NCBI RefSeq assembly: GCF_044324875.1
Contig: NZ_CP172185.1
DNA length: 64,000 nt
Strand: one strand, 5' to 3'
From: Escherichia coli
GTDB lineage: Bacteria > Pseudomonadota > Gammaproteobacteria > Enterobacterales > Enterobacteriaceae
Shown piece by piece: positions 14,143 to 58,987 of the stretch; within the stretch, counting starts at the first letter, position 1, and every line of letters starts with the position of its first letter. The notes under the pieces are model-generated. The model was not told where the DNA came from, searched no databases, and saw only the letters and a program-made list of their open reading frames with translations. The translations under genes were made by a program, and so were the position numbers.

Positions 14143-14189
14143 TAAATCAGCCGGGTGGTAACTCTGCCATCCGGCGTTTTCCCGCAAAT

Positions 14190-15023: not shown

Positions 15024-15062
15024 TAAAACCCATTTGTGACCACACTCGATATGTGTTTTTTA

Positions 15063-15076
15063 TTGATTTAAATCAA
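15063..15076 (+). promoter_or_regulatory. FNR consensus site (proximal) in the grcA promoter
   Basis: Perfect TTGATTTAAATCAA. Confidence 0.75.
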
Positions 15077-15182
15077 AGAATCAAGGGTGATTGAGGAGTA
15101 TATATACACTCAAGCAACAATGGTTTTACCAATTGGCCGCGACAGGCTGAACAAATCAATAATTTTGCCGGGGAGGCATCAC

Positions 15183-15566: not shown

Positions 15567-15621
15567 GGCTTAAGTAGCAAGTTACTAAGCGGAAGAGGGC
15601 GACTTCTTCCGCTTTTTTTCG

Positions 15622-16209: not shown

Positions 16210-16311
16210 TTGTTATCTCCTCTGTTTTGGTAGACAGTACCCGACACGGAACATTTAAAAAAATGAATGTTTTTACATTCTGAATTCGATATTTTTGATA
16301 GGTTTGGAGTT

Positions 16312-17193
16312 ATGGATCTGCGCCGTTTTATTACGCTTAAAACCGTGGTGGAAGAGGGTTCCTTTTTGCGAGCTTCGCAAAAATTGTGCTGTACACAATC
16401 GACGGTGACTTTTCATATTCAGCAGCTTGAACAGGAGTTCTCGGTACAGTTGTTTGAGAAAATTGGTCGACGGATGTGCCTCACTCGCGAAGGAAAAAAG
16501 CTGCTGCCGCACATCTATGAACTTACCCGAGTGATGGATACGCTTCGTGAGGCTGCCAAAAAAGAGTCGGATCCGGACGGGGAACTACGCGTTGTTTCGG
16601 GCGAAACGTTGCTCTCTTACCGAATGCCGGAGGTGTTGCAGCGTTTTCGGCAACGCGCACCAAAAGTGCGTTTATCGTTGCAGTCGCTGAACTGTTACGT
16701 GATCCGTGATGCACTACTGAATGATGAGGCCGATGTTGGCGTCTTTTATCGCGTAGGAAATGATGATGCTTTGAACCGACGGGAGTTGGGTGAACAATCG
16801 CTGGTGCTGGTGGCTTCACCACAAATTGCAGATGTCGATTTTACTGAGCCGGGAAGACATAACGCCTGTAGCTTTATTATCAACGAACCGCAATGTGTCT
16901 TCCGGCAGATATTTGAGAGCACGCTGCGTCAGCGGCGGATCACGGTGGAAAACACCATTGAGCTGTTAAGCATTGAAAGTATCAAGCGTTGTGTCGCGGC
17001 GAATATCGGGGTCAGTTACTTACCGCGTTTTGCGGTGGATAAAGAGCTTGAGAGCGGAGAATTAATTGAATTGCCTTTTGGCGAACAGTCGCAGACCATT
17101 ACGGCCATGTGCGCACACCATGCTGGAAAAGCGGTTAGCCCGGCGATGCACACTTTTATTCAGTGTGTTGAAGAGTGTTTTTTGCCGGGATAA
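16312..17193 (+). CDS. yfiE: LysR-family transcriptional regulator YfiE, 293 aa
   Basis: Start at MDLRRFITLKTVVEEGSF; LysR HTH N-terminus. Confidence 0.8.
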   Translation: MDLRRFITLKTVVEEGSFLRASQKLCCTQSTVTFHIQQLEQEFSVQLFEKIGRRMCLTREGKKLLPHIYELTRVMDTLREAAKKESDPDGELRVVSGETLLSYRMPEVLQRFRQRAPKVRLSLQSLNCYVIRDALLNDEADVGVFYRVGNDDALNRRELGEQSLVLVASPQIADVDFTEPGRHNACSFIINEPQCVFRQIFESTLRQRRITVENTIELLSIESIKRCVAANIGVSYLPRFAVDKELESGELIELPFGEQSQTITAMCAHHAGKAVSPAMHTFIQCVEECFLPG

Positions 17194-17195
17194 AA

Positions 17196-17224
17196 ATAAT
17201 GCCGGGCTTAAACCCGGCATTGAG
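17196..17224. terminator. Bidirectional hairpin between convergent yfiE and srmB
   Basis: AATGCCGGGCTTAAACCCGGCATT palindrome. Confidence 0.6.
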
Positions 17225-17225
17225 A

Positions 17226-18560
17226 TTACTCTTCTGTCGTTTGCGGTGGCACGCCTGTTCCGCTTGGTTTACGGCGCTTACCAATATTTTTGGTGTCGCG
17301 ATGGCGTTTTTTCACCCGCGGCTTCTCTTTCTCTTTAGCTTTTTTCTTCTCGGCGCGTTTTGCCAGTACTTTCTTCGATGGCTTGCCGGTTTGCTTCTCG
17401 CTTGGCGCACGCGTTTTCGGGCGTAACTCATCAATTACACGAGCTTTAATTGGCTCTTCAATATAGCGACCAACTTTGCCCAGCAGCAGATGGTCATGGG
17501 CTTCTACCAGCGAAATTGCGGTGCCTTTACGACCGGCGCGCGCGGTACGTCCGATACGGTGCAAATAAGTATCGCCACTGCGCGGCATATCGAAGTTAAA
17601 GACGTGGCTGACATCAGGAATGTCAATACCGCGTGCGGCAACGTCGGTTGCAACCAGCACGTTAACGCGGCCTTCGGTCAAACGCTTGATCGCTTCATTA
17701 CGCTTGCCTTGTACCATCTCGCCTTCGAGATAGCAGTTGTTGATGCCCGCTTCGCGCAGCCAGTTTGCCAGCTCATGCACACGCTCACGCTTACGCACAA
17801 ATACGATTGAGCGGGTCGCTTCCGGCTGTTTTAACAGATGCACCAGCAATGCGGTTTTATGTTCCAGGTCATCGGCGCGGTAATACCACTGATGAATTTT
17901 TTTGCGCTCACGGGTGGACGGATTGGCAGAAACCTCCACCGGATCTTCCAGCAGACGCTCGGCAAAGTCCTGAATCGCATCGCCTTCCAGAGTTGCCGAA
18001 AAGAGCAGGGTCTGTTTACGCCAGCGCGTTTCGCCAGCAATATGTTCGATATCCTGAGCGAAGCCCATATCCAGCATACGGTCTGCTTCGTCGAGGATCA
18101 GCGTTTCAACCGCGCGGCAATCGAAGTTCTCTTCTTTTATGTATTGCAGCAGACGTCCGGTCGTGGCGACCACGATGTCCTGATTTTCGCTGAACACTTC
18201 CGCGTGGTTCATATAGGCTACGCCGCCGGTGATGGTGGCGATATCCAGATGCGTATGTTTCGCCAGTTCGCGGGCATGATCGGCCACCTGCATCGCCAGC
18301 TCGCGAGTTGGGGTGAGGATCAAAATACGCGGCGGACCGGATTTCTTACGTGGGAAATCGAGCAGGTGCTGCAACGCTGGCAGCAGATACGCCGCCGTTT
18401 TACCGGTGCCTGTCGGCGCAGAACCGAGTACATCACGGCCATCGAGCGCAGGCGGAATGGCGGCAGCCTGAATGGCGGTCGGGCGAGTGAAACCTTTATC
18501 CTGGAGGGCTTCCAGCAGGCTTTCGTCGAGTTCAAGTTCGGAAAAAGTCGTTACAGTCAT
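17226..18560 (-). CDS. srmB: DEAD-box RNA helicase SrmB, 444 aa
   Basis: DEAD box and helicase motifs (GTGKT, DEAD, SAT); basic C-terminal tail. Confidence 0.9.
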
Positions 18561-18691
18561 GTTCTACCTCTGTGTGGGGCGCTGATTATAGACGTTACGG
18601 CTGCAATCTTCATCTGTTTGTATGGATATCGCTTCTCGGGTATTGTTCTCACCCGGTGCTATCGCCGTTTTTCCTGCAAGGTTTTATTTTC

Positions 18692-21045
<2,354 letters not shown>

Positions 21046-21333
21046 TTAATTTACTAAACACGGTTTGGTCAGCATAGCATCATGTTGTGCGATTAAACAC
21101 CTGCTATTTTAATATTTGTTACAGTGGCTAAACACGCTGACGCAGGGCGGCGAGAAAAAGAGAAGTTACTGGCTGGTGGAGGATTAGGTGGTGAAATAAA
21201 AAGGCCGTTGGGTTACTCTTCAGGCAGTTAAATGGGCATTTCTACACAGATAATGCGATGTTCAGATTCTGTAGACTTATAATGATAGATAATGATCCGT
21301 CTACAGCATGACAAACAAAAACAGATGCGTTAC

Positions 21334-21361
21334 GGAACTTTACAAAAACGAGACACTCTAA
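21334..21361 (+). promoter_or_regulatory. SigmaE-dependent promoter upstream of rpoE
   Basis: GGAACTT-N16-TCTAA matches the sigmaE -35/-10 consensus. Confidence 0.75.
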
Positions 21362-21443
21362 CCCTTTGCTTGCTCAAATTGCAGCTAATGGAGTGGCGTT
21401 TCGATAGCGCGTGGAAATTTGGTTTGGGGAGACTTTACCTCGG

Positions 21444-22019
21444 ATGAGCGAGCAGTTAACGGACCAGGTCCTGGTTGAACGGGTCCAGAAGGGAGATCAG
21501 AAAGCCTTTAACTTACTGGTAGTGCGCTATCAGCATAAAGTGGCGAGTCTGGTTTCCCGCTATGTGCCGTCGGGTGATGTTCCCGATGTAGTACAAGAAG
21601 CTTTTATTAAAGCCTATCGTGCGCTGGATTCGTTCCGGGGAGATAGCGCTTTTTATACATGGCTGTATCGGATTGCTGTAAATACAGCGAAAAATTACCT
21701 GGTTGCTCAGGGGCGTCGTCCACCTTCCAGTGATGTGGATGCCATTGAAGCTGAAAACTTCGAAAGTGGCGGCGCGTTGAAAGAAATTTCGAACCCTGAG
21801 AACTTAATGTTGTCAGAAGAACTGAGACAGATAGTTTTCCGAACTATTGAGTCCCTCCCGGAAGATTTACGCATGGCAATAACCTTGCGGGAGCTGGATG
21901 GCCTGAGCTATGAAGAGATAGCCGCTATCATGGATTGTCCGGTAGGTACGGTGCGTTCACGTATCTTCCGAGCGAGGGAAGCTATTGATAACAAAGTTCA
22001 ACCGCTTATCAGGCGTTGA
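21444..22019 (+). CDS. rpoE: RNA polymerase sigma-E factor, 191 aa
   Basis: Start at MSEQLTDQVLVERVQ; ECF sigma regions 2 and 4. Confidence 0.95.
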   Translation: MSEQLTDQVLVERVQKGDQKAFNLLVVRYQHKVASLVSRYVPSGDVPDVVQEAFIKAYRALDSFRGDSAFYTWLYRIAVNTAKNYLVAQGRRPPSSDVDAIEAENFESGGALKEISNPENLMLSEELRQIVFRTIESLPEDLRMAITLRELDGLSYEEIAAIMDCPVGTVRSRIFRAREAIDNKVQPLIRR

Positions 22020-22051
22020 CGATAGCGGGATACTGGATAAGGGTATTAGGC

Positions 22052-22702
22052 ATGCAGAAAGAACAACTTTCCGCTTTAATGGATGGCGAAACGCTGGATA
22101 GTGAGCTGCTTAACGAACTGGCTCATAACCCAGAAATGCAGAAAACCTGGGAAAGCTATCACTTAATCCGTGACTCAATGCGGGGTGATACTCCCGAGGT
22201 GCTCCATTTCGATATCTCTTCACGCGTGATGGCCGCCATTGAAGAAGAGCCAGTACGTCAACCGGCGACATTGATCCCGGAAGCCCAGCCTGCGCCGCAT
22301 CAATGGCAGAAAATGCCATTCTGGCAGAAAGTACGTCCGTGGGCGGCACAGCTTACCCAAATGGGCGTAGCAGCATGCGTATCGCTTGCAGTTATCGTTG
22401 GGGTCCAGCACTATAATGGACAATCTGAAACGTCCCAGCAGCCCGAAACGCCGGTATTTAATACACTGCCGATGATGGGTAAAGCCAGCCCGGTTAGCCT
22501 GGGAGTACCTTCTGAAGCGACCGCAAATAATGGTCAACAGCAGCAGGTACAGGAGCAGCGTCGTCGCATTAATGCAATGTTGCAGGATTACGAACTGCAA
22601 CGCCGACTCCACTCTGAACAGCTTCAGTTTGAGCAGGCGCAAACTCAGCAAGCCGCTGTACAGGTGCCAGGAATTCAAACTTTAGGAACGCAATCGCAGT
22701 AA
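22052..22702 (+). CDS. rseA: Anti-sigma-E factor RseA, 216 aa
   Basis: Start at MQKEQLSALMDGE; central transmembrane segment; Q-rich C-terminus. Confidence 0.9.
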   Translation: MQKEQLSALMDGETLDSELLNELAHNPEMQKTWESYHLIRDSMRGDTPEVLHFDISSRVMAAIEEEPVRQPATLIPEAQPAPHQWQKMPFWQKVRPWAAQLTQMGVAACVSLAVIVGVQHYNGQSETSQQPETPVFNTLPMMGKASPVSLGVPSEATANNGQQQQVQEQRRRINAMLQDYELQRRLHSEQLQFEQAQTQQAAVQVPGIQTLGTQSQ

Positions 22703-47265: not shown

Positions 47266-48459
47266 TCAAATCTGCCGTAACTGCGCCTCAACATACAAAT
47301 AGCCAATTCCCAGTACCTGTTGTGCGCGGCTTAATTGCCCAAAGCCAATTTTCGTCGCTTTCACGCTCGGTCCTTCGTCGCGGTCGAACGGGTTAAATCC
47401 CGTCTGGCGAATAATGGTATTAAGCCAGTGCTCACCAAAGGCACAACTGCGACCGTACAACCAAATCTGATTAATATTGAGGATGTTGAGGAAGTTATAC
47501 AGACTCAAACCAATGGCATTGGCAGAGCGATCAACCCAGCTGGTGATCCACGGTTCTCCACTCTGCCAGGCAGCGATTAACTGCGCTGTTGTCAGTTTTT
47601 CAGGATCAAGCTGAGTATTAACCGGTTGTGATTTTAGCCATACCCGTGCCTGTTTTTTTAATGCACTTAACGAGGCGACGGTTTCCAGGCAGCCGTAACG
47701 TCCACAGTCGCAGACGACGCCATTCGGATTAACGATGGTGTGACCAATCTGTCCGCTACCATACAAACAGCCGCGATAAATTTGCTCGTTAATCACGAAC
47801 GACGAGCCAATACCGTAATCAACGTTGATCACGCAGAAATCCCGGCCCTGCGAATTATTTTGCCATTTCTCCGCCAGCGCCAGCATCACGCAGTCATTAT
47901 CGACCATCACCCGAATGCCGAGCTTCTCTTCCAGCAGATACTTCACCTCAACCGGCGTTGTCCACGGTGCTTGCGGCATGGTTTGCGACACGCCAGTCAC
48001 CGGATCAACCTGACCGTGGATTGCCAGCGCCAGGTTGATGGTACGGTCCGGCCACAATTTACGGTGGCGATGCCAGCATTTTTCGATTTCGGACAGCAGC
48101 GCCTGCGGCGTCGGTGCATCAATCTGTAAATACTCAAATTCGCCTTTCGGACTTAAACAGGCGTTAGCGACCTGACACTCAATACTGGTAGGCGTCACGT
48201 TCAGGCACAGCGTCCAGTCACCTTCCGGCGCAATCAGCCATGTACCGCTACTATGCCCGCGCGTCTGGCTTTCATCGTCGATATTCACCACCCGTTTTTC
48301 GCTTTCCAGTTCCTGCAAAATATTACTGACCGCCGGAATCGAAATTTGCGCCAGCCGGGCCAGGGTTGATTTATTGGCGCGCTTTTGCCGGTACAGCAGT
48401 TCCAGAATCACGCATTTGTTATGGTGGCGAATCTGTTGATTATTAATGCAGGCTCTCAT
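47266..48459 (-). CDS. yphH: ROK/NagC-family transcriptional regulator YphH, about 397 aa
   Basis: N-terminal HTH plus ROK sugar-kinase-like domain with Cys/His zinc motif; start uncertain. Confidence 0.8.
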   Translation of the reverse strand: MRACINNQQIRHHNKCVILELLYRQKRANKSTLARLAQISIPAVSNILQELESEKRVVNIDDESQTRGHSSGTWLIAPEGDWTLCLNVTPTSIECQVANACLSPKGEFEYLQIDAPTPQALLSEIEKCWHRHRKLWPDRTINLALAIHGQVDPVTGVSQTMPQAPWTTPVEVKYLLEEKLGIRVMVDNDCVMLALAEKWQNNSQGRDFCVINVDYGIGSSFVINEQIYRGCLYGSGQIGHTIVNPNGVVCDCGRYGCLETVASLSALKKQARVWLKSQPVNTQLDPEKLTTAQLIAAWQSGEPWITSWVDRSANAIGLSLYNFLNILNINQIWLYGRSCAFGEHWLNTIIRQTGFNPFDRDEGPSVKATKIGFGQLSRAQQVLGIGYLYVEAQLRQI

Positions 48460-48576
48460 CTTCACTAAACCTTGTTTAGTTAATTGCGTGATTATTCCGC
48501 GAAAACATTGCCAGATTGTTCAATACACTGCCACAAATCTTTTAATTCAGTATGTCTTGTTAATATTGAGGGCACC

Positions 48577-51500
48577 ATGACTCCAGTAAAAGTGTGGCAA
48601 GAGCGCGTTGAGATCCCGACCTATGAAACCGGGCCGCAGGATATACATCCCATGTTCTTGGAAAATCGCGTTTATCAGGGATCGTCCGGCGCGGTTTATC
48701 CCTACGGCGTGACCGATACGCTGAGCGAGCAGAAAACCCTGAAATCCTGGCAGGCGGTGTGGCTGGAAAACGACTACATCAAAGTGATGATCCTGCCGGA
48801 ACTGGGCGGTCGGGTGCATCGCGCGTGGGATAAAGTGAAACAGCGCGATTTTGTCTATCACAATGAAGTCATTAAACCGGCGCTGGTGGGGCTGCTGGGA
48901 CCGTGGATCTCCGGCGGGATTGAGTTTAACTGGCCGCAACACCATCGCCCGACCACCTTTATGCCCGTTGATTTCACCCTCGAAGCCCATGAAGACGGCG
49001 CACAAACCGTGTGGGTAGGCGAAACGGAGCCGATGCATGGTTTACAGGTGATGACAGGTTTCACCCTGCGCCCTGACCGGGCGGCGCTGGAAATCGCCAG
49101 CCGCGTCTATAACGGCAACGCCACGCCGCGTCATTTCTTGTGGTGGGCCAACCCGGCAGTGAAAGGGGGTGAAGGGCATCAGAGCGTCTTCCCGCCGGAT
49201 GTAACGGCGGTGTTTGATCACGGCAAACGGGCCGTCTCTGCTTTCCCCATCGCCACCGGCACTTACTACAAAGTGGACTACTCCGCCGGAGTGGACATTT
49301 CTCGCTATAAAAATGTGCCTGTTCCAACCTCATATATGGCTGAAAAATCACAGTACGATTTTGTTGGCGCGTGGTGTCACGATGAAGATGGCGGTTTGCT
49401 GCACGTTGCCAACCACCATATTGCGCCAGGTAAAAAACAGTGGAGCTGGGGACACAGTGAATTTGGCCAGGCGTGGGATAAGAGTCTGACCGACAATAAC
49501 GGCCCGTATATCGAACTGATGACCGGTATTTTTGCCGATAACCAGCCTGATTTTACCTGGCTTGATGCGTACGAAGAGAAGCGTTTCGAGCAGTATTTCC
49601 TGCCTTATCATTCTCTGGGCATGGTGCAAAATGCCTCCCGCGATGCGGTGATAAAACTCCAGCGTAGTGAGCGGGGGATTGAGTGGGGGCTGTATGCCAT
49701 CTCTCCGTTGAAAGGATACCGCCTGGCGATCCGCGAAATCGGCAAATGCAACGCGTTGCTCGATGATGCCGTGGCCCTGACACCAGCGACCGCCATCCAG
49801 GGCGTGTTGCACGGTATCAATCCTGAAAGGCTGACCATTGAACTCTCCGATGCCGACGGCAATATCATACTGAGTTATCAGGAACATCAGCCGCAAGAGC
49901 TGCCGTTGCCGGACGTCGCCAAAGCGCCACTGGCAGCACAAGACATTACCAGTACAGATGAAGCCTGGTTTATCGGTCAGCATCTGGAGCAATATCATCA
50001 CGCCAGCCGTTCACCGTTCGATTACTACCTGCGCGGCGTGGCGCTGGATCCGCTGGATTATCGCTGTAATCTGGCGCTGGCGATGCTGGAATATAACCGC
50101 GCCGATTTCCCGCAAGCGGTGGCGTATGCCACTCAGGCGCTGAAACGCGCACATGCGCTGAACAAAAATCCGCAGTGCGGACAGGCGAGCTTGATTCGCG
50201 CCAGTGCTTACGAACGTCAGGGGCAATATCAACAAGCCGAAGAGGATTTCTGGCGTGCGGTCTGGAGCGGCAACAGTAAAGCCGGTGGCTATTATGGTCT
50301 GGCACGGCTGGCGGCGCGTAATGGTCACGTCGACGCTGGTCTGGATTTTTGCCAACAAAGTCTTCGCGCCTGCCCAACCAATCAGGAAGTGCTTTGCCTG
50401 CATAATCTGCTGCTGGTGTTAAGTGGTCGTCAGGACAACGCGCGTTTGCAGCGTGAGAAACTGCTGCGTGATTATCCGCTGAACGCCACTCTGTGGTGGC
50501 TGAACTGGTTCGATGGTCGTAGCGAATCAGCCCTCGCGCAGTGGCGCGGTCTGTGTCAGGGACGCGACGTTAACGCCCTGATGACCGCCGGGCAACTGAT
50601 TAACTGGGGAATGCCCACCCTGGCGGCAGAGATGCTGAACGCACTGGACTGCCAGCGCACGCTGCCGCTTTATCTGCAGGCGAGTTTATTGCCGAAAGCT
50701 GAACGCGGCGAACTGGTCGCAAAAGCCATTGATGTCTTCCCACAGTTTGTCCGTTTCCCGAATACGCTGGAAGAAGTGGCGGCGCTGGAGAGTATTGAAG
50801 AGTGCTGGTTTGCCCGTCATTTACTGGCCTGCTTCTACTACAACAAGCGCAGCTACAACAAAGCCATTGCCTTATGGCAACGTTGCGTAGAGATGTCGCC
50901 GGAGTTTGCCGACGGCTGGCGCGGGTTAGCGATCCATGCGTGGAATAAGCAACACGATTATGAGCTGGCCGCGCGTTATCTTGATAATGCTTATCAGCTT
51001 GCGCCGCAGGATGCACGTCTGCTTTTCGAACGGGATTTGCTGGATAAGTTAAGTGGAGCCACACCGGAGAAACGACTGGCGCGTCTGGAAAATAATCTGG
51101 AAATTGCGCTGAAACGCGACGACATGACCGCAGAACTGCTCAATTTGTGGCATCTCACTGGTCAAGCAGACAAAGCGGCGGATATTCTCGCCACGCGCAA
51201 ATTCCACCCGTGGGAAGGCGGGGAAGGGAAGGTCACCAGTCAGTTTATCCTCAATCAGCTATTACGCGCCTGGCAGCACCTTGATGCCAGAGAGCCGCAG
51301 CAGGCCAGCGAACTGCTTCATGCCGCGCTGCATTATCCGGAAAATTTAAGCGAAGGCCGTTTACCCGGGCAAACTGATAACGACATCTGGTTCTGGCAGG
51401 CGATATGCGCTAACGCGCAGGGCGATGAAACTGAAGCGACGCGTTGTTTACGTCTGGCGGCGACCGGCGATCGCACCATTAACATTCACAGTTATTACAA

Positions 51501-51858
51501 CGATCAGCCGGTTGATTATCTCTTCTGGCAAGGAATGGCGCTGCGACTGCTGGGCGAACAACAAATCGCACAGCAACTGTTTAGTGAAATGAAACAGTGG
51601 GCGCAAGAGATGTCGAAAACCAGTATCGAGGCGGATTTCTTTGCTGTTTCACAACCTGACCTGTTGTCGCTGTATGGCGATTTACAACAGCAGCATAAAG
51701 AAAAATGCCTGATGGTGGCGATGCTGGCGTCCGCGGGACTAGGGGAGGTTGCGCAATATGAATCTGCTCGCGCTGAATTGACGGCGATTAATCCGGCCTG
51801 GCCGAAAGCAGCATTATTCACCACCGTGATGCCTTTTATTTTTAACCGCGTTCACTAA
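48577..51858 (+). CDS. yphG: Large uncharacterised protein YphG (about 1093 aa) with TPR-like C-terminal half
   Basis: Start placed at MTPVKVWQERVE; first gene of the yphGFEDCB cluster. Confidence 0.8.
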   Translation: MTPVKVWQERVEIPTYETGPQDIHPMFLENRVYQGSSGAVYPYGVTDTLSEQKTLKSWQAVWLENDYIKVMILPELGGRVHRAWDKVKQRDFVYHNEVIKPALVGLLGPWISGGIEFNWPQHHRPTTFMPVDFTLEAHEDGAQTVWVGETEPMHGLQVMTGFTLRPDRAALEIASRVYNGNATPRHFLWWANPAVKGGEGHQSVFPPDVTAVFDHGKRAVSAFPIATGTYYKVDYSAGVDISRYKNVPVPTSYMAEKSQYDFVGAWCHDEDGGLLHVANHHIAPGKKQWSWGHSEFGQAWDKSLTDNNGPYIELMTGIFADNQPDFTWLDAYEEKRFEQYFLPYHSLGMVQNASRDAVIKLQRSERGIEWGLYAISPLKGYRLAIREIGKCNALLDDAVALTPATAIQGVLHGINPERLTIELSDADGNIILSYQEHQPQELPLPDVAKAPLAAQDITSTDEAWFIGQHLEQYHHASRSPFDYYLRGVALDPLDYRCNLALAMLEYNRADFPQAVAYATQALKRAHALNKNPQCGQASLIRASAYERQGQYQQAEEDFWRAVWSGNSKAGGYYGLARLAARNGHVDAGLDFCQQSLRACPTNQEVLCLHNLLLVLSGRQDNARLQREKLLRDYPLNATLWWLNWFDGRSESALAQWRGLCQGRDVNALMTAGQLINWGMPTLAAEMLNALDCQRTLPLYLQASLLPKAERGELVAKAIDVFPQFVRFPNTLEEVAALESIEECWFARHLLACFYYNKRSYNKAIALWQRCVEMSPEFADGWRGLAIHAWNKQHDYELAARYLDNAYQLAPQDARLLFERDLLDKLSGATPEKRLARLENNLEIALKRDDMTAELLNLWHLTGQADKAADILATRKFHPWEGGEGKVTSQFILNQLLRAWQHLDAREPQQASELLHAALHYPENLSEGRLPGQTDNDIWFWQAICANAQGDETEATRCLRLAATGDRTINIHSYYNDQPVDYLFWQGMALRLLGEQQIAQQLFSEMKQWAQEMSKTSIEADFFAVSQPDLLSLYGDLQQQHKEKCLMVAMLASAGLGEVAQYESARAELTAINPAWPKAALFTTVMPFIFNRVH

Positions 51859-51954
51859 ACCTTATTAACTGTAATATTTGAGCGGCACGCGCTGCCGCTC
51901 ACGCTCAAATAATTAAAATAAGCCGTTGTAAATAAAAACCCTACAGGAGGTACT

Positions 51955-52938
51955 ATGCCTAAAAAAATGAGAACAACCCGTAATCTATTATTAATGGCTA
52001 CGCTATTAGGTAGCGCACTATTTGCCAGGGCTGCGGATAAAGAAATGACCATTGGCGCAATATACCTTGATACCCAGGGATATTACGCTGGTGTGCGTCA
52101 GGGCGTTCAGGATGCGGCAAAAGATTCTTCAGTACAGGTACAGTTAATTGAAACTAACGCCCAGGGTGATATTTCGAAAGAAAGTACCTTTGTTGATACC
52201 CTCGTGGCGCGTAATGTCGATGCCATTATTTTATCGGCAGTGTCTGAAAATGGCAGTAGCCGTACCGTTCGTCGCGCCAGTGAAGCGGGTATTCCGGTAA
52301 TTTGCTACAACACCTGTATTAATCAAAAAGGCGTCGATAAATATGTCTCGGCGTATCTGGTCGGCGATCCGCTGGAATTTGGTAAAAAACTGGGTAACGC
52401 TGCCGCCGATTATTTTATTGCCAACAAAATTGACCAGCCGAAAATTGCCGTCATCAATTGCGAAGCCTTTGAAGTTTGTGTGCAGCGCCGTAAAGGATTT
52501 GAAGAAGTATTAAAAATCCGTGTTCCCGGCGCGCAAATTGTCGCTAATCAGGAAGGGACTGTTTTAGATAAAGCGATTTCCGTTGGTGAAAAACTAATTA
52601 TCTCCACGCCGGATCTCAACGCCATTATGGGGGAATCGGGCGGTGCGACACTCGGCGCGGTAAAAGCGGTACGTAATCAAAATCAGACCGGAAAAATTGC
52701 TGTTTTCGGTTCGGATATGACCACTGAAATTGCTCAGGAGCTGGAAAACAATCAGGTGCTGAAAGCGGTGGTGGATATTTCCGGTAAGAAAATGGGCAAT
52801 GCTGTTTTCGCGCAAACTTTGAAGGTTATCAATAAACAAGCCGACGGTGAAAAAGTGATTCAGGTGCCTATCGATCTCTATACCAAAACGGAAGACGGTA
52901 AACAGTGGCTGGCAACGCACGTTGATGGTCTGCCCTAA
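51955..52938 (+). CDS. yphF: ABC transporter periplasmic sugar-binding protein, 327 aa
   Basis: Signal peptide; RbsB-like periplasmic binding fold. Confidence 0.85.
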   Translation: MPKKMRTTRNLLLMATLLGSALFARAADKEMTIGAIYLDTQGYYAGVRQGVQDAAKDSSVQVQLIETNAQGDISKESTFVDTLVARNVDAIILSAVSENGSSRTVRRASEAGIPVICYNTCINQKGVDKYVSAYLVGDPLEFGKKLGNAAADYFIANKIDQPKIAVINCEAFEVCVQRRKGFEEVLKIRVPGAQIVANQEGTVLDKAISVGEKLIISTPDLNAIMGESGGATLGAVKAVRNQNQTGKIAVFGSDMTTEIAQELENNQVLKAVVDISGKKMGNAVFAQTLKVINKQADGEKVIQVPIDLYTKTEDGKQWLATHVDGLP

Positions 52939-52960
52939 TCGCTGATTCGCAGAGGTCCCT

Positions 52961-54472
52961 ATGTTCACGGCAACAGAGGCAGTCCCGGTAGCAATAGTGG
53001 TAGCTGGAAATAAGCGTTATCCCGGCGTCGTTGCGCTGGATAACGTTAACTTCACGCTCAATAAAGGAGAAGTTCGTGCGCTGTTAGGCAAAAACGGCGC
53101 GGGCAAATCGACCCTCATTCGAATGCTTACCGGCAGTGAACGTCCGGATAGCGGTGATATCTGGATTGGCGAGACGCGACTGGAAGGTGACGAAGCTACG
53201 TTGACTCGCCGTGCCGCTGAACTGGGGGTTCGTGCGGTTTATCAGGAGTTAAGTCTGGTGGAGGGACTGACGGTGGCGGAAAACCTCTGCCTCGGTCAGT
53301 GGCCCCGCCGCAACGGCATGATTGATTACCTGCAAATGGCGCAGGATGCCCAACGTTGCTTACAGGCGCTGGGCGTTGACGTTAGCCCTGAACAACTTGT
53401 TTCAACGCTAAGCCCGGCGCAAAAGCAACTGGTGGAAATTGCGCGGGTGATGAAGGGCGAGCCGCGCGTGGTCATTCTTGATGAACCTACCAGTTCGCTT
53501 GCCAGTGCGGAAGTTGAACTGGTGATCAGCGCGGTTAAAAAGATGTCGGCACTGGGCGTGGCGGTGATTTATGTCAGCCACCGGATGGAAGAAATCCGCC
53601 GCATTGCCTCCTGTGCCACCGTTATGCGCGATGGTCAGGTAGCGGGCGATGTGATGCTCGAAAACACCTCCACGCATCATATTGTGTCGCTAATGCTCGG
53701 GCGCGATCACGTTGATATTGCGCCGGTTTCCCCTCAGGAAATTGTCGATCAGGCTGTGCTGGAAGTCCGTGCGTTACGCCATAAGCCCAAGCTGGAGGAT
53801 ATCAGCTTTACGCTCCGTCGTGGCGAAGTGCTCGGCATTGCTGGCCTGCTGGGGGCAGGGCGCAGTGAATTGTTGAAAGCCATAGTTGGGCTGGAGACGT
53901 ATGAACAGGGCGAAATTGTTATCAACGGCGAGAAAATCACGCGCCCCGATTACGGCGACATGCTGAAACGCGGCATTGGCTATACGCCAGAAAACCGCAA
54001 AGAAGCGGGGATCATTCCCTGGCTGGGCGTTGACGAAAATACAGTGCTGACCAATCGGCAAAAAATCAGCGCCAACGGTGTGCTGCAATGGTCCACCATC
54101 CGCCGCCTGACCGAAGAGGTGATGCAGCGGATGACGGTCAAGGCCGCCAGTAGCGAAACGCCCATCGGCACGCTTTCTGGCGGCAATCAGCAAAAAGTGG
54201 TGATCGGTCGTTGGGTCTATGCCGCCAGCCAGATTTTGTTGCTCGACGAGCCAACGCGTGGCGTCGATATCGAAGCCAAACAGCAGATTTACCGTATTGT
54301 CCGCGAGCTGGCTGCCGAAGGAAAAAGTGTGGTGTTTATCTCCAGTGAAGTGGAGGAGTTGCCGCTGGTGTGTGACCGCATCCTGTTATTACAGCACGGT
54401 ACGTTCTCGCAGGAGTTTCACTCGCCGGTCAATGTGGATGAGCTGATGTCCGCCATTCTGTCTGTGCACTGA
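52961..54472 (+). CDS. yphE: ABC transporter ATP-binding protein with two ABC domains, 503 aa
   Basis: Two Walker A motifs (GKNGAGKST, GLLGAGRSE) and signature LSGGNQQK. Confidence 0.9.
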   Translation: MFTATEAVPVAIVVAGNKRYPGVVALDNVNFTLNKGEVRALLGKNGAGKSTLIRMLTGSERPDSGDIWIGETRLEGDEATLTRRAAELGVRAVYQELSLVEGLTVAENLCLGQWPRRNGMIDYLQMAQDAQRCLQALGVDVSPEQLVSTLSPAQKQLVEIARVMKGEPRVVILDEPTSSLASAEVELVISAVKKMSALGVAVIYVSHRMEEIRRIASCATVMRDGQVAGDVMLENTSTHHIVSLMLGRDHVDIAPVSPQEIVDQAVLEVRALRHKPKLEDISFTLRRGEVLGIAGLLGAGRSELLKAIVGLETYEQGEIVINGEKITRPDYGDMLKRGIGYTPENRKEAGIIPWLGVDENTVLTNRQKISANGVLQWSTIRRLTEEVMQRMTVKAASSETPIGTLSGGNQQKVVIGRWVYAASQILLLDEPTRGVDIEAKQQIYRIVRELAAEGKSVVFISSEVEELPLVCDRILLLQHGTFSQEFHSPVNVDELMSAILSVH

Positions 54473-54496
54473 TGAATTTTACCGAGGAACCTGAAG

Positions 54497-55495
54497 ATGT
54501 CTGCTTCGTCATTACCATTGCCGCAGGGCAAGAGCGTCTCGCTCAAACAATTTGTCAGTCGCCATATTAATGAGATCGGTTTGCTGGTGGTGATCGCCAT
54601 TCTTTATCTGGTCTTCTCCCTGAACGCGCCGGGCTTTATCTCATTGAATAACCAGATGAACGTGCTGCGCGATGCCGCCACCATTGGGATTGCCGCCTGG
54701 GCGATGACGCTGATTATTATCTCCGGTGAAATTGATGTCAGCGTTGGGCCGATGGTGGCTTTTGTCTCGGTGTGCCTGGCATTTTTGCTGCAATTTGAAG
54801 TTCCGCTGGCGGTGGCGTGTCTGCTGGTGTTGCTGTTAGGCGCGCTGATGGGAACGCTGGCCGGGGTGCTGCGCGGCGTGTTTAACGTACCAAGTTTCGT
54901 TGCCACACTGGGGCTGTGGAGCGCCCTGCGCGGAATGGGGCTGTTTATGACCAACGCCCTGCCAGTGCCGATTGACGAAAACGAGGTACTGGACTGGCTG
55001 GGTGGACAATTTCTCGGAGTGCCGGTATCCGCGCTGATCATGATGGTGTTGTTTGCGCTGTTTGTGTTCATCAGCCGCAAAACCGCCTTCGGGCGCTCGG
55101 TTTTTGCTGTTGGCGGTAATGCCACTGCAGCACAGTTGTGCGGCATCAACGTTCGTCGGGTGCGCATTCTTATCTTTACCCTTTCGGGATTATTAGCGGC
55201 GGTGACCGGCATTTTGTTGGCGGCGCGCCTCGGTTCCGGTAACGCAGGTGCCGCAAACGGTCTGGAGTTTGACGTCATCGCCGCGGTCGTGGTCGGTGGT
55301 ACGGCACTTTCCGGCGGTCGCGGTTCCCTGTTTGGTACATTGCTTGGTGTGTTGGTGATTACGCTAATCGGTAACGGTCTGGTGCTGCTCGGGATTAACT
55401 CCTTTTTCCAGCAGGTGGTGCGCGGCGTCATCATCGTGGTGGCGGTGCTGGCGAATATCTTGCTGACTCAGCGAAGCAGTAAAGCGAAACGCTAA
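54497..55495 (+). CDS. yphD: ABC transporter permease (RbsC-like), 332 aa
   Basis: Polytopic membrane protein downstream of yphE. Confidence 0.85.
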   Translation: MSASSLPLPQGKSVSLKQFVSRHINEIGLLVVIAILYLVFSLNAPGFISLNNQMNVLRDAATIGIAAWAMTLIIISGEIDVSVGPMVAFVSVCLAFLLQFEVPLAVACLLVLLLGALMGTLAGVLRGVFNVPSFVATLGLWSALRGMGLFMTNALPVPIDENEVLDWLGGQFLGVPVSALIMMVLFALFVFISRKTAFGRSVFAVGGNATAAQLCGINVRRVRILIFTLSGLLAAVTGILLAARLGSGNAGAANGLEFDVIAAVVVGGTALSGGRGSLFGTLLGVLVITLIGNGLVLLGINSFFQQVVRGVIIVVAVLANILLTQRSSKAKR

Positions 55496-55560
55496 ACCTA
55501 AACGCCCCTGGCGCGGGTGCGGCAGGGATGAAAATTAATCGTATTGTTAATGAGGGATTT

Positions 55561-56622
55561 ATGAAAACGATGCTGGCAGCTTATTTACCAGGAAATTCGA
55601 CCGTCGATCTGCGGGAAGTTGCGGTGCCGACGCCGGGGATTAACCAGGTACTGATCAAAATGAAATCCTCCGGGATTTGCGGAAGTGATGTCCACTATAT
55701 CTATCATCAACACCGTGCCACGGCAGCGGCACCCGATAAACCGTTATACCAGGGATTTATCAACGGTCATGAACCGTGCGGGCAGATTGTGGCGATGGGG
55801 CAAGGCTGCCGCCATTTTAAAGAGGGCGACCGCGTGCTGGTGTATCACATTTCTGGCTGTGGTTTTTGCCCGAACTGCCGCCGCGGCTTTCCTATCTCTT
55901 GTACTGGCAAAGGAAAAGCGGCTTACGGCTGGCAGCGTGACGGCGGTCATGCCGAATACCTGCTGGCGGAAGAAAAAGATCTGATCCTGCTCCCGGACGC
56001 GCTGAGCTATGAAGATGGTGCGTTTATCAGTTGCGGCGTTGGTACAGCGTATGAAGGGATTTTGCGCGGCGAAGTTTCCGGCAGTGATAACGTGCTGGTG
56101 GTCGGTCTGGGGCCGGTCGGCATGATGGCGATGATGCTGGCGAAAGGTCGCGGTGCAAAAAGGATCATCGGCGTTGATATGCTGCCGGAACGTCTGGCGA
56201 TGGCGAAACAGTTAGGGGTGATGGATCATGGCTATTTAGCAACGACCGAAGGTCTGCCGCAGATTATCGCCGAACTTACCCACGGTGGCGCGGATGTTGC
56301 GCTCGATTGTTCCGGTAATGCCGCAGGTCGCTTACTGGCGTTGCAATCCACTGCTGACTGGGGACGGGTGGTTTACATCGGAGAAACCGGAAAAGTGGAG
56401 TTCGAGGTTAGCGCCGATCTGATGCATCATCAACGGCGGATTATTGGCTCCTGGGTGACCAGTCTGTTCCATATGGAAAAATGCGCCCACGATTTAACGG
56501 ACTGGAAACTGTGGCCGCGTAATGCCATTACCCATCGCTTCACGCTGGAACAGGCAGGAGATGCCTATGCGCTGATGGCGAGCGGTAAATGCGGGAAAGT
56601 TGTGATTAACTTCCCGGATTAA
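55561..56622 (+). CDS. yphC: Zn-dependent alcohol/polyol dehydrogenase family protein, 353 aa
   Basis: GHEPCG zinc motif; Rossmann motif GLGPVG. Confidence 0.85.
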   Translation: MKTMLAAYLPGNSTVDLREVAVPTPGINQVLIKMKSSGICGSDVHYIYHQHRATAAAPDKPLYQGFINGHEPCGQIVAMGQGCRHFKEGDRVLVYHISGCGFCPNCRRGFPISCTGKGKAAYGWQRDGGHAEYLLAEEKDLILLPDALSYEDGAFISCGVGTAYEGILRGEVSGSDNVLVVGLGPVGMMAMMLAKGRGAKRIIGVDMLPERLAMAKQLGVMDHGYLATTEGLPQIIAELTHGGADVALDCSGNAAGRLLALQSTADWGRVVYIGETGKVEFEVSADLMHHQRRIIGSWVTSLFHMEKCAHDLTDWKLWPRNAITHRFTLEQAGDAYALMASGKCGKVVINFPD

Positions 56623-56633
56623 GGAGTCAGCGG

Positions 56634-57505
56634 ATGACCATCTATACGTTATCTCACGGGCCGCTAGAGCTGGACGTTTCTGACCGGGGCGGTGTCATCG
56701 AAGGCTTCTGGCGTGACGCGACGCCGCTCTTACGTCCCGGTAAAAAAAGCGGTGTGGCAACCGATGCCTCTTGTTTTCCGCTGGTGCCGTTTGCAAACCG
56801 GGTGAGCGGCAATCGTTTTGTCTGGCAGGGGCGTGAGTATCAACTGCAACCGAATGTTGAGTGGGATGCGCACTATCTGCACGGCGACGGCTGGCTGGGG
56901 CAGTGGCAATGTGTCTCGCGCAGCGAAGATAGCTTGTGTCTGGTGTATGAACATCGCAGCGGTGTTTATCACTATCGGGTAAGTCAGGCGTTTCATTTAA
57001 CGGCAGATACGCTGACGGTGACGCTCTCTGTCACCAATCAAGGGACAGAGACGCTGCCATTTGGTACCGGCTGGCATCCTTATTTTCCGTTGTCACCACA
57101 AACGCGGATTCAGGCGCAGGCGAGCGGTTACTGGCTGGAGCGGGAGCAGTGGCTGGCGGGTGAGTTTTCGAGCAGCTACCGCAGGAGCTGGATTTCAACC
57201 AGCTCGCGCCGTTGCCGCACCAGTGGGTGAACAATGGCTTTGCCGGATGGAATGGTCAGGCCCGCATCGAGCAGCCGCAGGAGGGTTATGCCATCATCAT
57301 GGAAACGACGCCACCTGCACCATGTTATTTCATCTTTGTTTCCGACCCGGCGTTTGATAAAGGATATGCGTTTGATTTCTTCTGTCTGGAACCGATGAGC
57401 CATGCGCCGGATGACCATCATCGCCCGGAAGGGGGTGATCTCATTGCGCTTGCACCAGGGGAATCAACAACTTCAGAGATGTCGTTGCGGGTTGCGTTAC
57501 TGTAA
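56634..57505 (+). pseudogene. yphB: Aldose 1-epimerase-family gene yphB, apparently frameshifted
   Basis: 872 nt from start to stop, not a multiple of 3; N-terminal frame ends at 57230, C-terminal frame continues from about 57164 to 57505; frame switch maps to the TTTT run at 57165-57168. Confidence 0.6.
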
Positions 57506-57531: not shown

Positions 57532-58439
<908 letters not shown>

Positions 58440-58987
58440 TCCAGGAGATGCTCCTGCATGGCTTTCAGATATGCATTTTCTGCGCGAAGATAACGCAGCT
58501 CATTCTTCATCTCTTCCGGCGTCATGTTTGCCTCGTTTTCATGGGTATCATCAGAACGGGTCATGCTTTTCTCCTTCCAGCGCCTGATAAAGGCCTCATT
58601 ACCAGATTTGCGGTAGCCTTTTATCCAGTTTTTAACCGTGTTGTGGCTGGGAATGTTAAACCGGGCAGCTACCCGGGGTAGAGACTCAGAATGCCCGAGA
58701 GCATAAAGAACCACGCAAAGTTTATCTTCAGGAGAATAGCTACGCTTGTGTCTGCAATCCAGTGCCCGAGGACCGTGAAGAAGAAAAAGATTAATCCAGT
58801 GTGAGAGGCTGGTGTGAGAAAGTTGAAAGAGTTTTGCCGTAGAAATGATGCCTGCATGACCGGCCAGGTAATGATTTACAGCGGCAAGTTTTACTTCAAA
58901 TGAATGTTTCATAAACTGCACCTTCAGATGTCAGATTATGTCCAACATTTGGGGTGCAGTTCATTCACGCCGCATCCGGCATCTTTC

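What the first reader, a model, noticed from the sequence alone, without database searches (positions are those of the whole stretch)
47266..57505. yphH-yphGFEDCB: a predicted sugar-utilisation locus with unknown substrate, headed by a large TPR-like protein
A divergently encoded ROK-family regulator (yphH) faces an apparent operon of a 1093-aa uncharacterised protein (yphG), a ribose-type ABC importer (binding protein, double-ABC ATPase, permease), a zinc-dependent polyol dehydrogenase (yphC) and an aldose epimerase-like gene (yphB). This architecture suggests uptake and catabolism of an unidentified sugar or polyol. YphG has no obvious catalytic signature that I can read by eye. To my knowledge the locus remains functionally unassigned, making it the least-understood part of the window.
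Basis: inference. Interest (0 to 1): 0.45.

Follow-up and report, generated by a model that had tools for sequence, protein, structure and literature searches.

The report
Orphan sugar operon yphH-yphGFEDCB
This is a real, near-universal E. coli sugar-uptake operon with no known substrate; its lead gene encodes a 1,093-residue protein (sugar-mutarotase fold plus TPR helices) that is conserved across bacterial phyla next to sugar importers and beta-galactosidases but has never been given a reaction.

Summary
They are yphH (ROK regulator, minus strand), then yphG, yphF/E/D (ribose-type ABC importer), yphC (Zn-dependent dehydrogenase) and yphB (aldose 1-epimerase). The locus occurs in 5,425 of 5,426 complete E. 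coli genomes. Correction: yphB carries a 1-bp deletion here (window 57168) and is truncated, and an IS1397 lies just downstream.

No library (Pfam, NCBIfam, PDB, AFDB) and no paper in the held collection assigns a function.

The family is very large: 3,938 clusters at 50% identity and relatives in at least 596 species. In 87 loci the recurrent neighbours are a divergent AraC or ROK regulator, a XylE-like sugar porter or YphFED-type ABC importer, and a GH2_20 beta-galactosidase. Secreted homologues keep the same invariant residues.

Best reading (confidence 0.4): an inducible module for a small galacto- or arabino-configured sugar or glycoside, with YphG as an uncharacterised enzyme acting at the anomeric carbon. 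The substrate and the chemistry remain unproven.

The parts
47266..48459 (-). yphH, a ROK-family transcriptional regulator (397 aa) transcribed divergently from yphG
   Evidence: ORF. NCBIfam NagC 1.7e-31 and Mlc 1.2e-30, both far below cut-off. The ROK Zn motif CDCGRYGC is visible in the translation. RefSeq annotates it 'ROK family protein'. A ROK gene sits immediately next to yphG in 15 of 19 gammaproteobacterial loci.
48464..48480 (.). Perfect 7-3-7 palindrome ACTAAAC-CTT-GTTTAGT, candidate YphH operator
   Evidence: It is the only exact match in the 64-kb window; 0.17 matches with up to 2 mismatches are expected by chance. It is conserved in register in the E. coli, Serratia and Aeromonas intergenic regions and is degenerate in Klebsiella. 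It abuts the yphH start codon, so part of the conservation could reflect the ribosome-binding site. No binding has been tested.
48483..48492 (.). Invariant box ATTGCGTGAT next to the palindrome, part of a TGCG-N9-CGCA-like dyad in three of four species
   Evidence: Alignment of four intergenic regions. Its function is inferred only.
48577..49611 (+). yphG residues 1-345: DUF5107 domain with an aldose-1-epimerase (mutarotase) fold; proposed catalytic domain
49612..49896 (+). yphG residues 346-440: small all-beta domain, poorly conserved
   Evidence: Secondary structure of the AF2 model. Conservation figures.
49954..51858 (+). yphG residues 460-1093: TPR-type helical solenoid of about 31 helices. 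A few invariant polar residues are present (W563, R782, E818, E880), and the conserved loop HPWEGGEG lies at residues 877-884
   Evidence: Pfam TPR_16 hits. Profile hits to TPR structures. Helix list of the model. Conservation.
51955..52938 (+). yphF, periplasmic binding protein of a CUT2 (ribose-type) ABC importer, with a signal peptide
   Evidence: Translation. Best NCBIfam hits are AlsB, MglB, LsrB and RbsB, all far below cut-off. The closest solved structure is 5hsg at E 4.8e-24.
52961..54472 (+). yphE, fused double ATP-binding-cassette ATPase (503 aa)
   Evidence: NCBIfam AraG 455 bits and XylG 434 bits, both below cut-offs.
54497..55495 (+). yphD, ABC permease (332 aa)
   Evidence: NCBIfam RbsC 227 bits and AraH 221 bits, both below cut-offs.
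55528..56622 (+). yphC, Zn-dependent medium-chain dehydrogenase (364 aa); an accessory rather than core component
   Evidence: NCBIfam Tdh 2.4e-50 and IolM 1.2e-49, both far below cut-offs. Closest PDB entries are 4cpd and the xylitol dehydrogenase 7y9p at about 1e-36. The GHEPCG motif and the Cys4 structural-zinc motif are visible. A homologue lies within four genes of yphG in only 6 of 87 loci.
56634..57505 (+). yphB, aldose 1-epimerase; frameshifted here by a 1-bp deletion at 57168 (pseudogene or sequencing error)
   Evidence: The intact orthologue is essentially identical to PDB 3nre (E 4e-201).
57565..58913 (-). IS1397 (IS3 family) transposase gene inserted between yphB and yphA; marks the downstream edge of the locus and is not part of it
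   Evidence: by homology to the annotated copy at the same site in E. coli IAI39.

Best explanation
The locus is a repressor-controlled catabolic module for a small carbohydrate of the galactose/arabinose kind: a monosaccharide-sized glycoside or sugar derived from beta-galactoside-bearing plant or algal glycans.

Proposed steps:
1. YphFED imports the compound. In most other bacteria a XylE-like proton symporter does this job instead.
2. Cytoplasmic YphG is the committed enzyme. Its mutarotase-fold domain binds the pyranose ring. Invariant His122/His123, His215 and Glu313, plus residues from the TPR solenoid (Arg782, Glu818, Glu880), would carry out acid/base chemistry at the anomeric carbon. 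My preferred version is cleavage of a small glycoside into common sugars.
3. YphB equilibrates the anomer that is released.
4. YphC, present only in the E. coli-type layout, oxidises a co-product or a second, related substrate.
5. YphH represses both divergent transcripts through the conserved palindrome at 48464-48480 until an inducer binds.

Shown: gene content, fold, conservation, phyletic spread and gene neighbourhoods. Inferred: the substrate class, the catalytic residues, the type of reaction, the operator, and the roles of YphB and YphC. In this strain the YphB step is genetically broken.
For: 1. YphG looks like an enzyme. The N-domain is by far the most conserved part: 51% identity across phyla against 20-26% elsewhere, and 82 of 345 columns are at least 90% conserved. 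These columns are rich in His, Glu, Asp, Asn, Lys and Trp.
3. The neighbourhood in 87 loci from at least five phyla is consistent. Within four genes, a XylE-like sugar porter occurs in 42 loci (adjacent in 31). The porter or a YphFED-type ABC occurs in 51. An AraC, ROK or LacI regulator occurs in 61. GH2_20 occurs in 35 (adjacent in 24). One of GH2_20, GH35, GH36 or GH97 occurs in 40. A mutarotase occurs in 17. The porter passes the sugar-porter subfamily cut-off (358 bits against 238) and is closest to XylE. In Photobacterium a MelB equivalog sits next to the GH2_20 gene, two genes from YphG.
4. GH2_20 is reported as a beta-galactosidase subfamily acting on decorated xyloglucan and rhamnogalacturonan (PMC12243196). 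The neighbouring GH2 matches PDB 8U01, a member of that subfamily, at E 1e-186.
5. Several loci contain only AraC + porter + YphG between unrelated housekeeping genes. One enzyme therefore seems to be enough to connect the substrate to central metabolism.
6. About 17 of 111 family representatives carry signal peptides, and one sits in a SusC/D locus with GH16 and sulfatases. They keep E64, D85, K86, E116, H122, H123, N179, N192, H215, E313, R782, E818 and E880. A periplasmic location fits a glycan- or glycoside-processing enzyme better than a mutarotase.
7. The same palindrome and adjacent box are conserved in the divergent promoter region of E. coli, Serratia and Aeromonas.
Against: - No activity, ligand or phenotype is known for any member of the family.
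- A profile-profile comparison of the N-domain with mutarotases finds nothing (hhalign probability 0.1). I could not superpose coordinates, so the equivalence of Glu313 and the His residues with the mutarotase catalytic set is unverified.
- No glycoside hydrolase is known to use this fold as its catalytic domain.
- XylE-type porters and CUT2 ABC systems normally carry free monosaccharides. That favours a monosaccharide substrate and so the rival 'anomerase/ring-converting' reading.
- The link to galactose or arabinose rests on neighbours assigned only at family or subfamily level. It is weak in Gammaproteobacteria, where only 3 of 19 loci hold such a glycosidase.
- YphF induction on levoglucosan relative to fructose (PMC8753852) came together with MalE, XylF and MglA, so it looks like catabolite de-repression rather than specific induction.
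- No sigma-70-like promoter was found in the intergenic region by the simple scan.
Confidence: 0.4

Rival explanations
1. YphG is a specialised mutarotase or ring-form converter (anomerase, or a pyranose/furanose-converting enzyme like RbsD or FucU in role). It would act on a free galacto- or arabino-configured monosaccharide released by the neighbouring galactosidases and taken up by the porter. The TPR part would serve oligomerisation or partner binding.
Against: A further classical mutarotase is encoded within four genes in 17 of 87 loci, and in 11 of 19 gammaproteobacterial loci; that would be redundant. A 1,093-residue protein with invariant residues in the TPR part (R782, E818, E880) is hard to justify for a reaction that 290-350-residue enzymes already perform. 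Signal-peptide-bearing homologues in polysaccharide utilisation loci keep the same residues. There is no sequence-profile similarity to mutarotases.
Confidence: 0.25
2. YphG is not an enzyme. It would be a cytoplasmic sugar sensor or scaffold: the mutarotase-like domain binds the sugar, and the TPR solenoid binds a protein partner such as the regulator or the transporter to tune expression or uptake.
Against: The partner regulator changes family between phyla (ROK, AraC, LacI) while YphG stays 40% identical. The density of invariant His, Glu, Asp and Lys residues in the N-domain is typical of an active site. Secreted homologues occur in polysaccharide utilisation loci. The family is an indicator of phagotrophic, digestive lifestyles in stramenopiles (PMC8163842).
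Confidence: 0.1
3. In E. coli the operon encodes an oxidative aldose route. YphB would supply the beta anomer, YphC would oxidise C1 to the lactone, and YphG would be a new lactonase whose product feeds an existing sugar-acid pathway such as dgo.
For: The YphC-like neighbour in a Firmicute locus carries the glucose-dehydrogenase C-terminal Pfam domain. A lactone resembles the pyranose ring that a mutarotase pocket binds. A mutarotase gene next to an aldose 1-dehydrogenase is a common arrangement (general knowledge).
Against: The dehydrogenase lies within four genes of yphG in only 6 of 87 loci and is absent from the Aeromonas, Klebsiella and Serratia core. YphG therefore cannot depend on it. 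YphC's best matches are polyol and threonine dehydrogenases.
Confidence: 0.07
4. The locus is cryptic or decaying in this strain, so no function is exerted here.
For: yphB is frameshifted, an IS1397 sits 60 bp downstream, and no consensus promoter was found. Truncated yphG products form sizeable clusters in public E. coli data (P0009, 900 aa; P0033, 692 aa).
Against: The other six genes are intact. Synonymous changes greatly outnumber non-synonymous ones: yphG 47:9, yphD 25:1, yphC 11:1, yphH 21:4. The locus is kept in 5,425 of 5,426 genomes. The single-base deletion may be a sequencing error, and E. coli has other mutarotases.
Confidence: 0.08

Closest known systems
Aldose 1-epimerases (galactose mutarotase GalM, YphB/3NRE, YeaD, Pfam PF01263)
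   Different: No sequence or profile similarity. YphG is three times larger, with an extra beta domain and about 31 TPR helices that carry invariant polar residues. It often co-occurs with a genuine mutarotase. Some homologues are secreted.
PDB 5CD6 (BDI_1685, Parabacteroides distasonis, 'TPR-domain containing protein', structural genomics)
   Different: It is 580 residues, so it has only about a third of the TPR solenoid, and is 21% identical. No function or publication was found.
Glycosidases and phosphorylases built from an N-terminal mutarotase-like sandwich plus a helical domain (GH65, GH94, GH95, GH15)
   Different: In those families the catalytic residues lie in a closed (alpha/alpha)6 barrel and the sandwich is auxiliary. 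In YphG the sandwich is the conserved part, and the helical part matches open TPR solenoids.
Transporter + glycosidase + mutarotase operons of E. coli (the sulfoquinovose yih cluster with YihQ/YihR; lac/mel with galM; mglBAC)
   Same: The logic is the same: a specific importer, one committed enzyme and an anomer-equilibrating mutarotase under a dedicated repressor. The best NCBIfam hit of YphB is the YihR-type model PRK15172 (2e-9). MglBAC, also a CUT2 system, is known to carry small galactosides (general knowledge).
   Different: The committed enzyme here belongs to no glycoside hydrolase family, and no substrate is known.

Membership tests
DUF5107 (Pfam PF17128) | Significant match to the family profile | tested here: met
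   E 3.1e-55 over residues 39-324, covering model positions 5-281 of 310.
Aldose 1-epimerase superfamily (YphG N-domain) | Galactose-mutarotase beta-supersandwich fold | tested here: met
Aldose 1-epimerase superfamily (YphG N-domain) | Detectable sequence or profile homology to PF01263-type mutarotases | tested here: not met
   hhalign of a 66-sequence YphG N-domain profile against a YphB/GalM-type profile gives probability 0.1 and E 0.48. There is no Aldose_epim hit in Pfam.
Aldose 1-epimerase superfamily (YphG N-domain) | The catalytic His/His/Asp/Glu set at structurally equivalent positions | not testable with these tools
There is only a colinear pattern (H122/H123, H215, E313) and a motif resemblance, IELMT against LEPMS.
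TPR repeat proteins (YphG C-terminal two thirds) | Repeated helix-turn-helix units matching TPR profiles | tested here: met
   TPR_16 at 2.9e-6 and 4.4e-4. Profile hits to consensus TPR, OGT and Cdc27 structures. About 31 helices in the model.
Known glycoside hydrolase, phosphorylase or lyase families | Sequence or fold match of a catalytic domain to a classified CAZy family | tested here: not met
ROK transcriptional repressors (YphH) | N-terminal DNA-binding domain plus a ROK sugar-kinase-like domain with the Cys-rich zinc motif | tested here: met
   The Mlc model aligns over residues 9-334 and the NagC model over 118-343. CDCGRYGC is present. Orthologues carry Pfam ROK, with or without a weak MarR hit. 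Both scores are far below the NagC and Mlc equivalog cut-offs, so YphH is neither of those.
CUT2 (ribose-type) sugar ABC importers (YphFED) | A type-I periplasmic binding protein, one fused double ATPase of about 500 aa and a RbsC/AraH-type permease | tested here: met
   YphE to AraG 455 bits; YphD to RbsC 227 bits; YphF to AlsB, MglB and RbsB. None reaches an equivalog cut-off, so the substrate is undefined.
Zn-dependent medium-chain dehydrogenases (YphC) | Catalytic and structural zinc ligands, a Rossmann domain and profile matches | tested here: met
   Tdh 2.4e-50 and IolM 1.2e-49, both below cut-offs. PDB 4cpd and 7y9p at about 1e-36. The GHEPCG, CGFCPNCRRGFPISC and GLGPVG motifs are in the translation. 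Substrate specificity was not tested.
Aldose 1-epimerase (YphB) in this window | An intact reading frame that includes the C-terminal catalytic Glu motif | tested here: not met
   The 1-bp deletion at 57168 truncates the product at 198 aa. The intact allele matches PDB 3nre.

The most novel reading that the evidence does not exclude
YphG is the founding member of a new class of carbohydrate-active enzyme. In this class a mutarotase-fold sandwich, closed off by a TPR solenoid, is itself the catalytic domain that cleaves or rearranges a glycoside. No classified glycoside hydrolase uses that arrangement. The family would be a widespread, overlooked step in the breakdown of beta-galactoside-decorated plant and algal glycans by gut, soil and marine bacteria. 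It is encoded in nearly every E. coli genome and in phagotrophic protists.
Probability: 0.3. Interest if true: 0.8.

Novelty: new variant of a known kind. Interest (0 to 1): 0.5.

Why it matters
yphG is a 3.3-kb gene kept in nearly every E. coli genome. Relatives occur in at least 596 bacterial species and form 3,938 clusters at 50% identity, yet none has a known reaction. It is one of the larger blind spots in carbohydrate metabolism in the best-studied bacterium.

The comparative picture assembled here turns an open 'y-gene' problem into a short list of experiments. The elements are a cytoplasmic mutarotase-fold enzyme, a dedicated XylE-like or ribose-type importer, AraC or ROK control, and GH2_20/GH35 beta-galactosidase partners in gut Bacteroidota, Lachnospiraceae and Bifidobacterium.

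If YphG proves to be a new glycoside-processing enzyme, it would add a catalytic fold to the carbohydrate-active enzyme repertoire. It would also fill a missing step in the use of dietary pectin, xyloglucan or arabinogalactan side chains by the microbiota.

Tried and rejected
1. Looking for a published assignment. Searches on gene names, b-numbers, DUF5107/PF17128/IPR033396, 5CD6/BDI_1685 and 'mutarotase-like + tetratricopeptide + glycoside hydrolase' gave only incidental mentions. The levoglucosan proteomics hit for YphF was set aside as non-specific, because MalE, XylF and MglA rose with it.
2. The first structure prediction, from 29 close homologues, failed in the N-domain (pLDDT below 50 for residues 169-344). 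It was replaced by a 66-sequence alignment.
3. A 115-sequence alignment was too large for the structure server.
4. Profile-profile alignment to mutarotases, meant to map catalytic residues, gave no signal.
5. Reading YphG as a GH65/GH94/GH95-like enzyme with an (alpha/alpha)6 barrel was rejected. The helical part matches open TPR solenoids, and the conserved part is the sandwich.
6. I looked for further conserved neighbours among 127 unclustered flanking proteins by scanning each against Pfam. Nothing recurs in more than 4 loci (GH95 3, GH31 2, GH115 2). The flanks of the minimal loci are unrelated housekeeping genes.
7. A second palindrome-like site at 21053-21069 lies just upstream of nadB and overlaps a TGTTTA...TAAACA dyad. 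I recognise that dyad from memory as NadR-box-like. I treated the site as unrelated.
8. A palindrome search with a 4-nt spacer missed the real site, which has a 3-nt spacer.
9. The paper behind the GH2_20 pectin activity (PMC5784806) is not held in the library.

Full report
**What is in the sequence.**
- yphH on the minus strand, 47266-48459
- a 117-bp divergent control region
- yphG, 48577-51858
- yphF, 51955-52938
- yphE, 52961-54472
- yphD, 54497-55495
- yphC, 55528-56622
- yphB, 56634-57505

RefSeq records of E. coli annotate the same seven genes with the same names. The stretch is found in 5,425 of 5,426 complete E. coli genomes at 95-99% identity. No genome matches the whole 10.2 kb at 99% or more. 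Against strain AF40, yphF and yphE are identical while yphG, yphD and yphH differ by 1.7-2.7%, so the region appears to be an allelic mosaic.

Differences in the intact genes are mostly synonymous: yphG 47:9, yphH 21:4, yphD 25:1, yphC 11:1. These genes are therefore under purifying selection.

The frame shifts after residue ~178 and stops at codon 199, which removes the C-terminal FCLEPMSHAPDD segment. An IS1397 lies 60 bp downstream, between yphB and yphA, at the same site as in strain IAI39.

**Family-level identities.**
- YphH matches the NagC, Mlc and ROK models and carries the ROK zinc motif.
- YphF, YphE and YphD match the binding protein, fused double ATPase and permease of ribose/arabinose-type (CUT2) importers.
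- YphC matches Zn-dependent medium-chain dehydrogenases.
- Intact YphB is essentially PDB 3NRE, a structural-genomics aldose 1-epimerase.

Every NCBIfam score is far below the curated equivalog cut-off, so none of these matches names a substrate.

**Is there a published function?** I found none. YphH is described as 'a third uncharacterized ROK repressor' of E. coli (PMC4288165). It is listed among 58 transcription factors of unknown function (PMC9308461). YphF rose about 3-5-fold on levoglucosan relative to fructose in an engineered strain. MalE, XylF, UgpB, YtfQ and MglA rose with it, which looks like relief of catabolite repression (PMC8753852). 'DUF5107' occurs in a single paper, as an orthogroup of unknown function that marks phagotrophic stramenopiles alongside digestive enzymes (PMC8163842). 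Searches on b-numbers, Pfam and InterPro accessions and the one PDB code gave nothing.

**What YphG is.** Pfam finds DUF5107 at residues 39-324 (E 3e-55) and TPR repeats further on. The only solved relative by sequence is 5CD6, an unpublished 580-residue structural-genomics protein from Parabacteroides.

A first structure prediction from 29 close homologues failed in the N-domain. With 66 diverse homologues the model reached pLDDT 94.9 and pTM 0.93. It shows three parts:
- a beta-sandwich, residues ~1-345
- a small beta domain, residues 346-440
- about 31 helices, residues 460-1092

The N-domain is the conserved part. Distant homologues average 51% identity to the E. coli protein there, against 20-26% in the other domains, and 82 of its 345 columns are at least 90% conserved. 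Nearly invariant residues include E64, N65, D85, K86, K100, W110, E116, H122, H123, R124, N179, N192, H215, K287, Y311, E313, N322, Q323 and D325. The helical part adds W563, R782, E818, E880 and the loop HPWEGGEG.

A profile-profile comparison with mutarotases found no similarity (probability 0.1). The relationship is therefore visible only in the fold. I could not superpose coordinates, so equating E313, H215 and H122/H123 with the mutarotase catalytic Glu/His/His remains an inference. It rests on colinearity and on the resemblance of Y-I-E-L-M-T to YphB's C-L-E-P-M-S.

**How widespread it is and what it travels with.** A search of 1.84 billion representative proteins with residues 1-480 found 3,938 clusters at E of 1e-3 or better and 893 at 1e-30 or better. 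Most proteins are about 1,100 residues long, so the whole architecture is conserved. The best 80 loci come from Enterobacterales, Aeromonas, Photobacterium, many Bacteroidota, Lachnospiraceae, Paenibacillus, Bacillus, Bifidobacterium and a spirochaete.

I called ORFs in 87 loci and clustered them. The counts below give the number of loci with each neighbour.

| Neighbour | Loci, within four genes | Loci, immediately adjacent |
|---|---|---|
| AraC-type regulator | 44 | 27, usually divergent |
| ROK regulator | 16 | 15 |
| XylE-like sugar porter | 42 | 31 |
| YphE-type ABC ATPase | 11 | not counted |
| GH2 of ~930 residues | 35 | 24 |
| GH35 | 8 | 3 |
| GH36 | 4 | 0 |
| GH97 | 2 | 1 |
| YphB-type mutarotase | 11 | 2 |
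| GalM-type mutarotase | 6 | 2 |
| YphC-type dehydrogenase | 6 | 1 |

The sugar porter or the CUT2 ABC system is present in 51 loci.

The porter passes the sugar-porter subfamily cut-off and is closest to XylE (399 bits). The AraC-type regulator aligns with AraC over both of its domains. The GH97 is close to the retaining alpha-galactosidase model. The best NCBIfam hit of the GH36-like protein is a beta-L-arabinopyranosidase model. The GH2 matches PDB 8U01 at E 1e-186. That entry represents subfamily GH2_20, reported as beta-galactosidases active on decorated xyloglucan and rhamnogalacturonan (PMC12243196).

Among 127 further flanking proteins nothing recurs in more than four loci (GH95 3, GH31 2, GH115 2). 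Several loci consist only of AraC + porter + YphG between unrelated genes.

In Aeromonas, Klebsiella oxytoca and Serratia the layout is ROK | YphG - porter - mutarotase, with no ABC system or dehydrogenase. In Klebsiella this sits at the same glyA-yphA position as in E. coli. One Enterobacter has yphGFEDCB followed by the porter as well. In Photobacterium pectinilyticum, YphG, a ROK gene, a MelB equivalog and a GH2_20 gene lie in a row. YphFED-type ABC genes with a GalM-type mutarotase also flank YphG in four Firmicutes.

**Cellular location.** All 80 best homologues, at 39% identity or more, begin 10-15 residues before the conserved IPTY motif and have no signal peptide. Their GH2_20 partners carry signal or lipoprotein peptides in Bacteroidota but not in Firmicutes or Bifidobacterium.

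Among more distant family representatives about 17 of 111 have clear signal peptides. One lies in a SusC/SusD locus with GH16, sulfatases and beta-helix proteins. These secreted proteins keep the same invariant residues.

**Control region.** The yphH-yphG spacer contains a perfect palindrome, ACTAAAC-CTT-GTTTAGT (48464-48480), followed by an invariant ATTGCGTGAT box (48483-48492). Both are conserved in register in Serratia and Aeromonas, and the palindrome is degenerate in Klebsiella. The exact palindrome is unique in the 64-kb window. A one-mismatch copy at 21053 lies upstream of nadB in what looks to me like a NadR-type dyad, so I regard it as unrelated.

The palindrome abuts the yphH start codon, so ribosome-binding-site conservation may contribute. 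A simple scan found no sigma-70-like promoter in the spacer. That would fit a promoter that needs activation, but this is conjecture.

**Interpretation.** The conserved unit is a regulator, a monosaccharide-type importer and YphG. It is often joined by a mutarotase and, outside the Gammaproteobacteria, by beta- and alpha-galactosidase-type glycosidases. YphC and the ABC system are features of the E. coli lineage, although both recur sporadically in Firmicutes.

YphG has the hallmarks of an enzyme whose pocket binds a pyranose at the anomeric end. A single such enzyme seems to be enough to connect the imported compound to central metabolism.

I therefore favour a small galacto- or arabino-configured glycoside or sugar as substrate, with acid/base chemistry at C1. 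Two observations tip me towards bond cleavage rather than plain mutarotation. The first is the frequent presence of a separate classical mutarotase. The second is the existence of secreted homologues with the same invariant residues. Against that, the transporter types and the fold favour a free monosaccharide and an anomerase or ring-converting role, so this rival remains strong.

A non-catalytic sensor role and a dehydrogenase-plus-lactonase route are less likely, for the reasons given under the rivals. None of these readings has been tested experimentally. The substrate is still unknown.

**Verdict.** The locus is a known unknown rather than a discovery. The analysis adds a structural identity for YphG, its very wide distribution, a conserved genomic signature that points to beta-galactoside-derived sugars, a candidate operator, and the finding that yphB is broken in this strain.

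Noticed in passing
window 57168 (within yphB, 56634-57505): There is a single-base deletion (TTTTGCGAG becomes TTTTCGAG) relative to E. coli AF40 and IAI39. It truncates YphB at 198 aa and removes the catalytic-Glu motif. This is either a pseudogene or a sequencing error.
   Followed up: yes
window ~57565-58913 (-): An IS1397 (IS3 family, programmed-frameshift transposase) is inserted between yphB and yphA. E. coli IAI39 has it at the same site, with 99.2% identity over 3 kb.
   Followed up: partly
window 21053-21069: A one-mismatch copy of the yphH-yphG palindrome (ACTAAACACGGTTTGGT) lies just upstream of nadB in the nadB-rpoE spacer. It overlaps a TGTTTA...TAAACA dyad that looks like a NadR box (from memory). 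It is probably unrelated to YphH.
   Followed up: partly
window 47266-57505 compared with 19400-22100: No complete E. coli genome matches the yph region at 99% or more (best 98.7%). yphF and yphE are identical to strain AF40, while yphG, yphD and yphH differ by about 2%. The nadB-rpoE region, in contrast, has 100% matches. This suggests recombinational mosaicism within the operon.
   Followed up: no
L011 (Enterobacter sp. BIGb0383) 8690-20397: This is a hybrid layout: yphH | yphG-F-E-D-C-B followed by the XylE-like porter typical of the other enterobacterial layout. It may be an intermediate between the two operon types.
   Followed up: no
L018 (Photobacterium pectinilyticum) 9983-22329: YphG, a ROK gene, a MelB equivalog (564 bits against a cut-off of 456) and a GH2_20 gene lie in a row. 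A distant AraA/SftI-like isomerase and a RhaT-like transporter follow. This locus links YphG to galactosides and possibly to rhamnose.
   Followed up: partly
L009 1791-5990 (protein P0237, 1,399 aa): This family member has an extra C-terminal Exo_endo_phos (endonuclease/exonuclease/phosphatase) domain and lies next to F5/8 type C (discoidin) domain proteins. The architecture is unusual and unexplained.
   Followed up: no
protein clusters P0009 (900 aa, 1,109 members) and P0033 (692 aa, 1,402 members): Large clusters of truncated, 98-99% identical YphG products exist in public E. coli data. They could be contig-end fragments or widespread disrupted alleles.
   Followed up: no
L083 (Niabella sp.) 10001-13312 and 14842-17928: Two DUF5107-TPR paralogues lie in one locus, one cytoplasmic and one with a signal peptide (1,028 aa). 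This hints at paired periplasmic and cytoplasmic steps.
   Followed up: no
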